Source: Escherichia coli 042 (GTDB taxonomy: Bacteria; Pseudomonadota; Gammaproteobacteria; Enterobacterales; Enterobacteriaceae). From it: a stretch of 64,000 nucleotides of DNA. The stretch lies in NCBI RefSeq assembly GCF_000027125.1, contig NC_017626.1. One strand, 5' to 3'. Below are positions 15,001 through 18,000 of the stretch, one piece after another. Positions within the stretch are counted from its first letter, which is position 1. Each line of letters opens with the position of its first letter. Position numbers: made by a program.

Positions 15001-18000
15001 TATGATGACAGGAAAAGCCAGTGCCCCAACAAAACCTAAACTGCCATCTGTATCTGAATTATCAAGATTTTTAGGTAGGGTAGTTAATAAAGATAAGGAA
15101 AGTAATAAGAGGATAATTCAAGAAGTTACAAGCATCATGGAAAATAAAGATATGCTCGCATCAAATAATATGCTGAGTTATTTCCTATCTAAATTAAAAG
15201 CTGTCATCGACTCAACTAAAGAGCTCGAACTAAAAATAGAGAGCTTTGTTACCATTTGCAATAAATATCTACAGTTATCAGATGATTCAAAATCGCTAAA
15301 TTTTGACATTGAAACATTACAAGTTATTGTAAAAGACTTATTCACAAATAACCCCATTGAATTAGAAGATCTTTCCTCAGGCGAAAAACAAATAATTTCT
15401 TTGATGGCTCATATGTATCTTGACCATACTAAGAAAAAAATTGTTTTAATAGATGAACCAGAATTATCGCTCTCACTTGAATGGCAAGAGCATGTCCTCG
15501 TAGATATAGTGAATAGCCCTTCAGTTACTCAAATGCTTGCAATAACACATTCACCTTTTGTTTTTAATAATGAACTGAAATCCCAAGTAACATCTTTGAA
15601 AGTTATCAAGCATTGAGGATTAGAATGGACGATCTTCGTTTTAATATGATGATGGATGCGATCAAAAAACCGTGTGTTTTGAGATTAAAGCTAATTAAAA
15701 ACAAAAAGGCAGGAAAGGCTTTATTTGTTTTCGAAGGTGACGATGACTATGATTTCTATCATCATGCTATAACTATTTCCGGTTTCGATAAAGAATATAC
15801 TCATATAAATGGGGCAGGAAAGAACCAATCTATTTCCCTTTATGAAGAATTATATAAAGAAAATAGTGATAATTTACAAAACACATATTTTTTTGTTGAT
15901 CAAGATTACTCTACCTTCTGTTACTCTAATAAAAACATAGTAACACTTCCATTTTATGCCATTGAGAACCCATTATCAGATGATAGAGTAATAAAACATT
16001 TTATAATCTCAACATTTAAACTTGACGAAAGGCATAGCAAAATTATAAATAGCGTTATGGGCTTTTATTCTAAGGCAAAAGCTAGCTTTTATTCTGAGAT
16101 AAAAAACATATCTATACAGCTGTATATGTCCAGAATACTTGGACTCGCGATAGAGTTTCCTTCAAACCATGAATTATTCGAAAAAATTGAAAAGGAAAAA
16201 GTCACCCTTAAAATAAATGAAATACCGGCAATTACTGATCGGTTAAAAAAAATAACAAAAGACGAAGAGAATTACTACAAAGTAATTTCCACTCTAGATA
16301 ATGACAAACTGACTAGAGGAAAGTATGTTTACTATTTTGTTAGCGAGTGGTTAATCCGCATAAAAAAATACATCAATTCAAGGATAGATAGTATAAATAA
16401 TGAAAGCGCCTTAAACTCTACCTCTTCAGTAGTGAATGAAAAAAAATTATCCAAACAACAATATGATCATACTGACCTGTCAATCGCAAGGCTTGTTCCT
16501 GCATGTATGAAAGTAAAAGAATTGGATGCTTTCTTAAAAAGGATTAATTAATAATAAAACACTGCGGGCGGTGCTTTCCCCGCCTCGCCCGCCCGCTTTG
16601 CCGGGCGGTTTTAATGCAGTTGCGCTGACACGCTCAGGCCGCGTCGGGCGCGGCGTGAGCTGCAGAAAATGAGTCAGGAAAACGCATGCAAAGCCATGCA
16701 CCTTATCGATGCATGGCTTTTTTCAGTAAAAACAGGCGGATTTTTCGGGGAGTTTTACACAGACTGACGTGATGCCAGTTCTGCACTTTTACGCGAAAAA
16801 ATCATGTTCTGCGCAGGGGTGAATTTTTCACGGCTGTCATCCACCGAAGCCGCGTCAGGCCTGAATCCGATGGTCGTTAAAATGTCGCTATCCTGTGCGG
16901 AATAATTAATTTTTTCCCCCTTCGCAAGCCAGGACAGAAGGGCTTCACGCAGGACATCTGTGGCACGCTGTATGGCACAGTTTCGGGCAATGGCCGTCAG
17001 CTCACTGTAGCCCATCAGCTCCGGTGCCAGTGCGGCCGCCAGTGCTGTGCCGTGCTGCTGCATAAAATCATTCAGCCGCTCGCGGATGCTGATGTGCTGA
17101 ACGGCTTCATGCGAACGAACATAACGACCGGCGGCCTGATTCACCTGCCATTTTCTGACTTCGATAATATTGCGTAATTCGTCCAGGCGACTGACGTTTC
17201 TGCCTTCCCCGGACAGAAGCCGCAGATATTCCTGTTCGGCTGCCGCCAGTTCATTTTTGCGCTGAAGCCATGCCGCTTTGTTATTCTGGCAGACCTCAAA
17301 AGCCTGCTGTAATGACATTGTGGTCACACCCCGTCCCCTGATTAATGGTTGAATGGTGAGCTGTAACAGCCTTTAACTTTTCGGACAACAGCCGGTGCTG
17401 TGCTTACCGGTGCTGGTTTTTCCTCCGTGACCGGAGAACGAATCACGGCACAAATTGACTCATGCGTTTTAAATGTCGCCGAACAGTAAATATTCTGGCA
17501 CTGCAGATAACTTTCTTTGACATTGTCACTCACATACCGGCTGGTGCGGGTATGCGCTGAATGACGACAGAAAGGGCAGCGCATCATGACAGCAGTCCTC
17601 TGGCCTTAAGCTCTGCTCCCTGCTGGTCTATTTTGTCCTGCCACACCTTGCGCTGTGCCGGTGTGCCTGCCACCTCATAATCCATGTGCGGGAGTGTTGC
17701 CGCTGACAGTCCGGTCAGCCGGAGAACCGGCTCGCCGGTGAGGCTGATTTGCATCTGTTTTATTTTCTGTTCCAGCGATGATTTCACCTGCTGCATGACA
17801 GCCTTTTCCGGCGCGACGTAGCCCTGATGGCCGGTGGTGTTGGCGAGCGGATTTTCCTGTACCAGGATGCTCAGATGCATTGCCCGGACAAGCGCCTCAC
17901 AGGTTTCATTCAGGGCGTGTTCCAGCTCATGCTCTGCATACAGACTCAGCAGGTGATGATGTGCCTTCCGGTAGGCGGTGGCCGTGCTGTCACACGCCCC

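What the first reader, a model, noticed from the sequence alone, without database searches (positions are those of the whole stretch)
16571..16589. Exact P2/P4 cohesive-end (cos) sequence next to the defense cargo
GTGCTTTCCCCGCCTCGCC is the reverse complement of the 19-nt P2/P4 cos overhang. Its presence between the cargo genes and psu fits the P4 map and implies the cargo is packaged at the genome end, the known variable hotspot of P4-like satellites.
Basis: partly seen in the sequence, partly recalled or inferred. Interest (0 to 1): 0.35.

Follow-up and report, generated by a model that had tools for sequence, protein, structure and literature searches.

The report
P4-satellite packaging site beside PARIS defence
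The 19-base motif is the DNA-packaging (cos) site of a P4-like satellite prophage inserted in the selC tRNA gene and carrying the published PARIS-1 anti-phage system; this arrangement is well documented, so the finding is correct but ordinary.

Summary
Observation confirmed. GTGCTTTCCCCGCCTCGCC lies at 16571-16589. It is the exact reverse complement of the 19-nt cohesive end annotated in P2 and of the first 19 nt of P4, and it occurs once in the window.

It sits in the 55-bp P2/P4 shared cos block (16564-16618), 53/55 identical to P4. psu lies 166 bp to one side and the ariB stop codon 20 bp to the other.

The element is an 11,053-bp P4-like satellite prophage in selC. It has attL/attR and intact int, psu, delta, sid, vis, epsilon and alpha, plus crr repeats and the C4/isrK RNAs. 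Its cargo is PARIS-1 (AriA/AriB), tested by Rousset et al. 2022.

One caveat: the cargo-side flank is CGCCCGC instead of T/CGCGCGC. The G at +4 is present in 106/106 other distinct cos sites. The C allele was absent from IMG/VR and from species-representative genomes. It does recur in 13 complete E. coli genomes, with two different cargoes. Whether P2 terminase cuts this site is untested; I estimate about 0.7 that it does.

Novelty: already known. Interest: low.

The parts
12606..12700 (+). tRNA-Sec gene (selC), the integration target
   Evidence: ARAGORN; Rfam tRNA-Sec 83.8 bits
12677..12709 (.). attL: direct repeat covering the 3' end of selC
   Evidence: 33-nt direct repeat, 91% identical to 23730-23762, spacing 11,053 bp
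12863..14044 (+). Tyrosine integrase, 393 aa, selC-specific type (37.5% identical to P4 Int)
   Evidence: Pfam Arm-DNA-bind_3 + Phage_int_M + Phage_integrase; blastp against P4 Int
14180..15616 (+). ariA: PARIS ABC-type ATPase, 478 aa
   Evidence: PADLOC AriA 1.4e-32; Pfam AAA_15 58.3 bits and AAA_21 51.2 bits; 5' part of the PARIS-1 insert of Rousset Table S2A is exact at window 13952
15625..16551 (+). ariB: PARIS DUF4435/TOPRIM effector, 308 aa
   Evidence: PADLOC AriB 1.5e-15; Pfam DUF4435 62.4 bits; protein identical to PARIS-1 protein 2
16564..16618 (-). 55-bp P2/P4-type cos block (positions -29 to +7 around the overhang); 53/55 identical to P4
   Evidence: Alignment with the circularised P4 and P2 junctions; conservation profile of 106 distinct cos sites
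16571..16589 (-). 19-nt cohesive-end sequence GGCGAGGCGGGGAAAGCAC, read on the minus strand
16567..16567 (.). Position +4 of the cargo-side flank: C in cos orientation, where 106/106 other distinct sites have G
16755..17327 (-). psu, 190 aa, 94.7% identical to P4 Psu
17342..17587 (-). delta, 81 aa, single Ogr/Delta zinc-finger unit (P4 delta is 166 aa)
   Evidence: Pfam Ogr_Delta 1.4e-18; blastp
17584..18318 (-). sid, 244 aa, 99.6% identical to P4 Sid
18871..19137 (+). vis/AlpA-type excisionase-regulator, 88 aa, 98.9% identical to P4 ORF88
19196..19472 (+). P4 immunity RNA region: c4-a1b1 targets, isrK, C4 antisense RNA
   Evidence: Rfam matches above gathering score
19717..20004 (+). epsilon (helper derepression), 95 aa, 98.9% identical to P4
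20923..23256 (+). alpha primase-helicase, 777 aa, 99.5% identical to P4
23302..23602 (.). crr: two 120-bp direct repeats (cis-required replication region)
   Evidence: the repeat finder family D1; matches P4 crr 4291-4590
23730..23762 (.). attR

Best explanation
The 19-mer is the cohesive-end core of the cos packaging site of an 11,053-bp P4-like satellite prophage. The prophage is integrated in selC (window about 12680-23755). It carries the PARIS-1 abortive-infection system (ariA/ariB) in the accessory hotspot between int and cos.

The mechanism below is established for P4 and inferred here. When a P2-type helper is present, Int and Vis excise the element by attL x attR recombination, and alpha replicates the circle from ori/crr. 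Delta and epsilon switch on helper late genes. Sid shrinks the helper capsid and Psu stabilises it. The helper terminase recognises the roughly 55-bp cos block and makes two nicks 19 nt apart. This gives a linear genome with 5' GGCGAGGCGGGGAAAGCAC overhangs.

The left end of that genome starts about 20 bp from the ariB stop codon (ariB-ariA-int). The right end stops 166 bp past psu.

cos also marks a recombination joint. The cargo-side flank travels with the cargo and the psu-side flank travels with the backbone.

Shown: sequence identity, gene content, att sites, a size compatible with packaging, and the mosaic pattern. Inferred: that terminase still cuts this particular site, which carries an unusual CGCCCGC cargo-side flank.
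For: - Exact 19-mer, unique in the window, identical to the annotated P2 cosL/cosR and to the P4 terminus.
- 53/55 identity to P4 across the shared block. P2-like phages align only over about 60 bp centred on the site, as expected for cos.
- P4 colinearity at 95-97% from window 16590 (= P4 base 11624) to 23602.
- All tested P4 core proteins are full length: Psu 94.7%, Sid 99.6%, Vis 98.9%, epsilon 98.9%, ORF151 97.4%, ORF106 100%, alpha 99.5%. C4/isrK RNAs are present, as are the crr repeats and attL/attR at selC, giving an 11,053-bp unit against 11,624 bp for P4.
- The cargo meets Rousset's PARIS rule (AAA_15 >=32, DUF4435 >=27) and is identical to their PARIS-1.
- Literature: P2 and P4 share the cos core, and the hotspot is adjacent to it (PMC9122126; PMC8628076; PMC9594776).
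- Recombination joint: DLI.6n shares int, cargo and the CGCCCGC flank (1 mismatch in 3.9 kb), but divergence starts at cos. ET82 shares the psu-side flank, including the rare -13G, but has TGCGCGC and a different cargo.
Against: - The cargo-side flank has C at +4, where 106/106 distinct IMG/VR cos sites have G.
- No IMG/VR contig with the exact 19-mer has a non-G at +4. None of about 100,000 species-representative genomes does either, and only 3 metagenome contigs do.
- A base 4 bp from the bottom-strand nick that is this conserved may matter for cleavage.
- -13G is also unseen in those 106 sites (C 92, T 14), but that position varies.
- No helper cos or P2 genes lie in the window.
- Several relatives of the element are decaying: sid frameshift in ST2350, IS21 in sid in ESDR8, IS5 in int in ET82.
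- No packaging experiment exists for this allele.
Confidence: 0.9

Rival explanations
1. The site is a cos relic. The element is a domesticated, immobile defence island at selC. The +4 G-to-C change, perhaps together with -13G and -35C, has abolished terminase nicking. PARIS-1 would then be inherited vertically or through homologous recombination of the selC region, not by packaging.
For: +4G is invariant in 106/106 distinct sites, and the C allele is absent from IMG/VR and from species-representative genomes. All 13 complete E. coli genomes carrying the allele have it at the same chromosomal site, selC. Flanking chromosomal homology could therefore spread it without packaging. Several carriers have disrupted sid or other genes. 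No helper cos lies in the window.
Against: In this window every P4 core gene is intact. The allele is found with two unrelated cargoes (PARIS-1; HAD hydrolase plus a hypothetical protein). It is also found with integrases only 82% identical and with several backbone variants, in hosts from humans, pigs, chickens and sediment. That pattern fits a circulating element better than a dead one. A P2-like prophage contig has TGCCCGC, and another has TGCACGC. The change makes the right half-site (read on the bottom strand, GCGGGCG) identical to the left half-site at -7..-1, GCGGGCG. Three natural sites carry the reciprocal C at -4. The fourth half-site position therefore appears to tolerate either G or C.
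Confidence: 0.25
2. The 19-mer belongs to a P2-like helper prophage, or to a chance GC-rich match, and not to a satellite.
For: P2-like phages carry the same 19-mer.
Against: No P2 structural or terminase genes flank it. The neighbours are psu/delta/sid on one side and int on the other. P2 homology is limited to about 60 bp. Chance expectation is about 5e-7 (and arithmetic).
Confidence: 0.01
3. The conserved GC hairpin plus T-run in the psu-side cos flank (16589-16608 followed by TTTTAATG) acts mainly, in the prophage state, as the intrinsic terminator of the ariAB transcript. On this view -13G was selected to strengthen it.
For: It is the only terminator-like hit on the + strand downstream of ariB. 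-13G adds a seventh G-C pair and shortens the loop (-14.4 against -13.6 kcal/mol).
Against: The energy difference is small and not distinguishable from shuffles (z = -1.0). The T-run is short (TTTT). The hairpin positions do not covary across 106 sites: -16 A and -1 A variants break pairs. ET82 has -13G with a different cargo. This reading is an add-on to the cos function, not an alternative to it.
Confidence: 0.15

Closest known systems
cos site of satellite phage P4 (NC_001609; Ziermann & Calendar 1990, cited in PMC9122126 and PMC9594776)
   Same: Identical 19-nt overhang. 53/55 identity in the conserved block. Same position 164-166 bp downstream of psu. The same backbone follows (psu-delta-sid ... 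alpha-crr) at 95-99%.
   Different: Two substitutions: -13 C>G and +4 G>C. Beyond +7 the sequence is unrelated (ariB instead of the gop upstream region). The integrase is 37.5% identical and targets selC. Delta is 81 aa, not 166 aa.
cos site of helper phage P2 (NC_001895, cosL/cosR)
   Same: Identical 19-nt overhang. Shared flanks TGCATTAAAACCGCCC...AAGCGGGCG and xGCxCGC.
   Different: There is no homology outside about 60 bp. P2 has TGCGCGC where the window has CGCCCGC. The loop bases differ.
P4-like satellite hotspot carrying PARIS-1 (E. coli O42, plasmid pFR84; Rousset et al. 2022, PMC9122126)
   Same: AriB is identical (308 aa). The 399-nt int-ariA junction is identical. WP_000334847 + WP_000342408, the proteins RefSeq annotates on the relatives whose cargo differs from the window by 1 nt in 2,393, are listed as P4-hotspot content in their Table S1. 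The location is between int and cos/psu.
   Different: Nothing detectable in the part of their insert held as text. The 3' end with cos was truncated in the stored supplement.
Retronphage phiR73 (P4-like cryptic prophage in selC; Sun, Inouye & Inouye 1991, cited in PMC6174562 and PMC8628076)
   Same: A P4-like element integrated in the selenocysteine tRNA gene, with a defence-type cargo (retron) in the accessory region. This rests on the titles cited and on my own recollection.
   Different: The cargo is PARIS-1, not retron Ec73. The phiR73 sequence was not in the searched phage collection, so identity could not be measured.

Membership tests
P2/P4-type cos site | 19-nt cohesive-end sequence GGCGAGGCGGGGAAAGCAC | tested here: met
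   19/19 identical to annotated P2 cosL/cosR and to the P4 terminus
P2/P4-type cos site | About 55-bp conserved block shared by P2 and P4 around the overhang (PMC9594776, citing Ziermann & Calendar) | tested here: met
   53/55 identical to P4. The near-invariant blocks GCAT (-28..-25) and AAGCGGGC (-9..-2), and +2, +3, +5, +6, +7 of the cargo-side flank, are all present
P2/P4-type cos site | Cargo-side flank (T/C)GCGCGC next to the bottom-strand nick | tested here: inconclusive
   The window has CGCCCGC. +4 is G in 106/106 other distinct sites. The C allele nevertheless recurs in 13 E. coli genomes, 2 metagenome contigs and one P2-like prophage. Its functional effect is unknown
P2/P4-type cos site | Cleavage by P2-type terminase (gpM/gpP) giving 5' 19-nt overhangs | not testable with these tools
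   Needs a packaging or terminase assay, or end sequencing
P4-like satellite (core set used by de Sousa & Rocha 2021: int, psu, delta, sid, alpA, epsilon, alpha) | All core components present, in the order int-(hotspot, cos)-psu-delta-sid-alpA-epsilon-alpha | tested here: met
   Pfam and blastp against P4 proteins; all are full length; order as described in PMC8628076
P4-like satellite | Integrated with flanking att repeats, and of a size that a small capsid can package (about 11.6 kb in P4) | tested here: met
   attL/attR at selC; 11,053-bp unit
PARIS (AriA + AriB) | Adjacent AAA_15/AAA_21 ATPase (>=32 / >=27 bits) and DUF4435 protein (>=27 bits), the detection rule of Rousset et al. | tested here: met
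   AAA_15 58.3, AAA_21 51.2, DUF4435 62.4 bits; rule quoted; PADLOC AriA and AriB hits
PARIS (AriA + AriB) | Anti-phage activity | not testable with these tools
   Reported for the PARIS-1 system, whose AriB is identical, only when expressed from an inducible promoter (PMC9122126)

The most novel reading that the evidence does not exclude
The CGCCCGC cargo-side flank is a functional cos allele and not noise. It turns the two nick-adjacent half-sites into a perfect 7-bp inverted repeat (GCGGGCG ... CGCCCGC). It marks a lineage of selC-integrating satellites, carrying PARIS-1 or HAD-hydrolase cargo, whose packaging efficiency or helper-terminase preference differs from canonical P4. The mirror possibility is that it is a knock-out that has locked these defence islands into the chromosome. 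In both readings the sharp switch of alleles inside the 31-bp interval from -12 to the end of the overhang shows cos acting as the physical joint at which defence cargo is reassorted between satellites.
Probability: 0.15. Interest if true: 0.35.

Novelty: already known. Interest (0 to 1): 0.15.

Why it matters
The finding confirms that this 11-kb island is a P4-type satellite that could in principle move the PARIS-1 defence system between Enterobacteria inside hijacked P2 capsids. That explains why the cargo sits where it does. It is a textbook-consistent instance of the published psu-int/cos hotspot, so it adds no new biology.

The one small point of value is the rare cos-flank allele and the allele-level evidence that cargo swapping breaks exactly at cos. 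Testing that allele in a P4 cosmid assay would say how much of the invariant GCGCGC flank the P2 terminase really needs.

Tried and rejected
- **Chance match:** rejected. The site is unique within 3 mismatches and the expectation is about 5e-7.
- **P2 helper prophage:** rejected. No P2 genes are nearby and homology is limited to about 60 bp.
- **Primary source for the minimal cos requirement:** I tried to read Ziermann & Calendar 1990 and Sun et al. 1991. Neither is held. Only secondary statements of a 55-bp shared cos were available.
- **cos in the published PARIS-1 insert:** I looked for the cos sequence in Rousset's Table S2A. The stored sequences are truncated.
- **phiR73:** I searched the phage collection with the int region. 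Only an irrelevant 64-bp Erwinia phage hit came back.
- **Helper/satellite co-variation of the +4C allele:** the one P2-like prophage with TGCCCGC (L136) has no match above about 90% in 5,426 E. coli genomes. There is no support for matched helper-satellite pairs.
- **cos hairpin as a conserved RNA or DNA structure:** positions -16 and -1 vary without compensation, and fold energies are not better than shuffles. I treat it as a protein-recognised duplex.
- **Relaxed-pattern scan:** one of the two hits (L137) is not a cos site.
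Full report
**1. 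The observation**

The string GTGCTTTCCCCGCCTCGCC is at window 16571-16589 on the + strand. It is the only site in the 64 kb, on either strand, within three mismatches. Shuffled sequence gave a mean of 0.01 such matches. By my arithmetic an exact 19-mer is expected about 5e-7 times.

Its reverse complement, GGCGAGGCGGGGAAAGCAC, is what the P2 reference record annotates as 'cosL; left cohesive end' (1-19) and 'cosR; right cohesive end' (33575-33593). It is also the first 19 nt of the P4 record.

**2. The cos block around the 19-mer**

I joined the ends of P4 and of P2 in silico and aligned them to the reverse complement of the window. The three sequences share three parts:
- a 29-nt psu-side flank, TGCATTAAAACCGCCC....AAGCGGGCG;
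- the 19-mer;
- a 7-nt cargo-side flank.

Together these make the 55-bp conserved cos that the literature attributes to Ziermann & Calendar 1990 (PMC9594776; PMC9122126). In window coordinates the block is 16564-16618.

P2-like phages in the phage collection align only over about 60 bp centred on this block. P4 aligns from window 16590, which is exactly its last base 11624, onward at 95%.

Relative to P4 the block has two substitutions. One is -13 C>G (window 16602). The other is +4 G>C in cos orientation (window 16567). The cargo-side flank therefore reads CGCCCGC instead of P4's CGCGCGC or P2's TGCGCGC.

**3. The element that owns the site**

The window contains one tRNA, tRNA-Sec (selC), at 12606-12700. 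A 33-nt direct repeat covers its 3' end (12677-12709) and recurs at 23730-23762. This defines attL and attR and a unit of 11,053 bp.

Between the att sites lie, in order:
- a 393-aa tyrosine integrase (12863-14044), 37.5% identical to P4 Int;
- ariA (14180-15616) and ariB (15625-16551);
- cos;
- psu (16755-17327, minus strand), 94.7% identical to P4;
- an 81-aa single-unit delta (17342-17587, minus strand);
- sid (17584-18318, minus strand), 99.6%;
- vis/alpA (18871-19137), 98.9%;
- the P4 immunity RNAs: c4-a1b1, isrK and C4 (19196-19472);
- epsilon, 98.9%; ORF151, 97.4%; ORF106, 100%;
- alpha (20923-23256), 99.5%;
- the two 120-bp crr repeats (23302-23602).

Every P4 core gene tested is full length. 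The chromosomal neighbours are yicI and yicJ on one side and setC, yicL and nlpA on the other. This is an intact-looking P4-like satellite prophage whose size is 95% of P4's 11,624 bp.

**4. The cargo**

The two cargo proteins hit PADLOC AriA (1.4e-32) and AriB (1.5e-15). They also hit Pfam AAA_15 (58.3 bits), AAA_21 (51.2 bits) and DUF4435 (62.4 bits). These scores satisfy the PARIS detection rule of Rousset et al..

The match to published work is closer than family membership:
- AriB is identical over all 308 aa to 'PARIS-1 protein 2' from E. coli O42 in their Table S2A.
- The first 399 nt of their cloned insert, running from the end of int into ariA, occur exactly at window 13952.
- RefSeq gives the accessions WP_000334847 and WP_000342408 to these proteins in close relatives. 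Those relatives' cargo differs from the window by 1 nt in 2,393. The pair appears in their Table S1 as a recurrent content of the P4 hotspot.

The paper reports that PARIS-1 defended against phages only when driven from an inducible promoter.

**5. How it most likely works**

This follows from what is established for P4 and is not tested here. A P2-type helper must be present. Int and Vis then excise the element at selC, and alpha replicates the circle from ori/crr. Delta and epsilon activate helper late genes. Sid makes small capsids and Psu stabilises them. The helper terminase nicks both strands 19 nt apart within cos.

The resulting linear genome starts with the 5' overhang GGCGAGGCGGGGAAAGCAC. 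The flank CGCCCGC follows, and the ariB stop codon lies 20 bp in. The left end therefore reads ariB-ariA-int, and the right end stops 166 bp beyond psu.

It matches the published description of a defence hotspot directly adjacent to cos in both P4-like satellites and P2-like phages.

**6. The one irregularity: the cargo-side flank**

I collected every IMG/VR contig returned for the exact 19-mer.

The conservation profile shows near-invariant blocks at -34..-17, -9..-1 and +1..+7. The window matches all of them except at four positions:

| Position | Window base | Frequency of that base in the 106 sites |
|---|---|---|
| -35 | C | 6% |
| -13 | G | 0% (others C 92, T 14; a variable position) |
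| +1 | C | 2% (as in P4) |
| +4 | C | 0% (G in 106/106) |

Pattern scans for any non-G at +4 next to the exact 19-mer gave:
- nothing in all of IMG/VR;
- nothing in about 100,000 species-representative genomes;
- three hits among metagenome contigs.

Those three hits were this same element, a second P4-like element, and one P2-like contig with TGCACGC. A relaxed scan added one P2-like prophage with TGCCCGC after a 19-mer ending in T.

In 5,426 complete E. coli genomes about 2,700-3,100 cos-like places were found. Of the genomes, 5 carry this ariB-cos junction and 8 carry a second junction with the same CGCCCGC flank. The three genomes of the second group that I opened carry a different cargo, a HAD-family hydrolase plus a hypothetical protein. 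All eight elements I opened from the two groups are at selC.

Their integrases are only 82% identical to the window's, and their backbones vary, with both 166-aa and 81-aa delta.

**7. Reading the irregularity**

Two arguments point toward impaired cleavage. The position is invariant in the sampled cos sites, and it lies 4 bp from the bottom-strand nick.

Three arguments point the other way:
- The allele persists across two cargoes, diverged integrases, several backbones and hosts of varied origin (human, pig, chicken, sediment).
- It occurs in a P2-like prophage as well.
- The two nick-adjacent half-sites are related by rotational symmetry. The left one is GCGGGCG (-7..-1). The canonical right one, read on the bottom strand, is GCGCGCA. 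In the window the right one is GCGGGCG, identical to the left. Three natural sites show the mirror change, C at -4. The fourth half-site position therefore seems to accept G or C.

I put the chance that this cos is still cut by a P2-type terminase at about 0.7. That it is a P4-type cos site is close to certain. The domesticated-relic rival gets about 0.25. It is helped by the fact that all carriers sit at one chromosomal locus and that several relatives are decaying: sid frameshift in ST2350, IS21 in sid in ESDR8, IS5 in int in ET82.

**8. cos as a recombination joint**

Mismatch profiles against relatives show a mosaic:

| Relative | Near-identical stretch | Where divergence starts |
|---|---|---|
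| DLI.6n | selC to the overhang (1 mismatch in about 3.9 kb), including CGCCCGC | first bin to the psu side of cos; has -13T |
| ET82 | psu side, including the rare -13G | cargo side of the overhang: TGCGCGC and a helicase cargo |
| YZ_2_2 | cargo through sid | int is diverged |
| VR50 | up to about 20.0 kb | 1-2% from there |

Two independent breakpoints therefore map to the 31 bp between -12 and the end of the overhang. This is allele-level support for the published proposal that cos is associated with rapid turnover of the defence cargo. It is not a new idea.

I cannot tell whether the joint forms by homologous recombination in the conserved block or by annealing of cohesive ends from different satellites followed by resolution elsewhere.

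**9. Minor points**

The GC hairpin of the psu-side flank followed by TTTTAATG (16589-16608) is the only terminator-like hit downstream of ariB on its strand. -13G adds a seventh G-C pair. The energy gain is 0.8 kcal/mol and indistinguishable from shuffles. I regard a terminator role as possible but unproven.

No second cos lies in the window, and none of the flanking genes I examined is P2-like. Mobilisation would therefore need a helper encoded elsewhere in the genome or arriving by infection.

**10. Verdict**

The site is the cos of a P4-like satellite at selC, in the manner of retronphage phiR73. Its hotspot holds the published PARIS-1 system.

The arrangement, the cargo and the link between hotspot and cos are all in the literature. 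Novelty is 'already known' and interest is low (0.15). The only loose end worth a bench test is whether the rare CGCCCGC flank still supports packaging.

Noticed in passing
window 16567 (+4) and 16602 (-13); relatives L126, L127, L130-L135: The cargo-side cos flank CGCCCGC is a rare allele. +4 is G in 106/106 other distinct sites. The allele is shared by selC satellites carrying PARIS-1 or a HAD-hydrolase cargo, and it makes the two nick-adjacent half-sites a perfect 7-bp inverted repeat. -13G travels with the psu-side backbone instead.
   Followed up: yes
window 12600-24600 compared with L126, L127, L134, L135: The element is a mosaic. Near-identity to relatives switches on or off at cos (DLI.6n, ET82), at the int/cargo junction (YZ_2_2) and at about 20.0 kb (VR50).
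   Followed up: yes
window 16589-16608: The conserved cos hairpin plus TTTTAATG is the only intrinsic-terminator-like hit downstream of ariB on the + strand. It could end the ariAB transcript. -13G lengthens the stem to 7 G-C pairs.
   Followed up: partly
window 19196-19472: Rfam finds the P4 immunity RNA set (c4-a1b1 targets, isrK, C4 antisense RNA) above gathering scores. They overlap an ORF that RefSeq calls 'Icd-like'.
   Followed up: partly
window about 23830-23991: A short rhuM pseudogene remnant lies between attR and setC, placed by homology to the ST2350 annotation. Strain MS 16-3 has an intact rhuM there. This suggests the remains of another island downstream of the satellite.
   Followed up: no
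window 17342-17587: Delta is an 81-aa single Ogr/Delta unit, whereas P4's is a 166-aa protein. Both forms occur among the selC relatives.
   Followed up: partly
window 12000-25000 query; GenBank MG065686.1 and MG065691.1: Two 'Campylobacter phage' records (A18a, A11a) contain about 2 kb that is 98% identical to this E. coli chromosomal region. This is probably contamination or misassembly in those records.
   Followed up: no
window 8600-12600 and 23763-24680: The chromosomal flanks are only 97-98% identical to all eight complete E. coli genomes compared, while int and cargo are >=99.9% identical in four of them. The host lineage therefore differs from those carriers, consistent with horizontal spread of the island.
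   Followed up: partly
L125 (ST2350), L132 (ESDR8), L127 (ET82), L133, L135: Close relatives of the element show decay: sid frameshift, IS21 in sid, IS5 in int, truncated ash/icd. The copy in the window has all core genes intact.
   Followed up: partly
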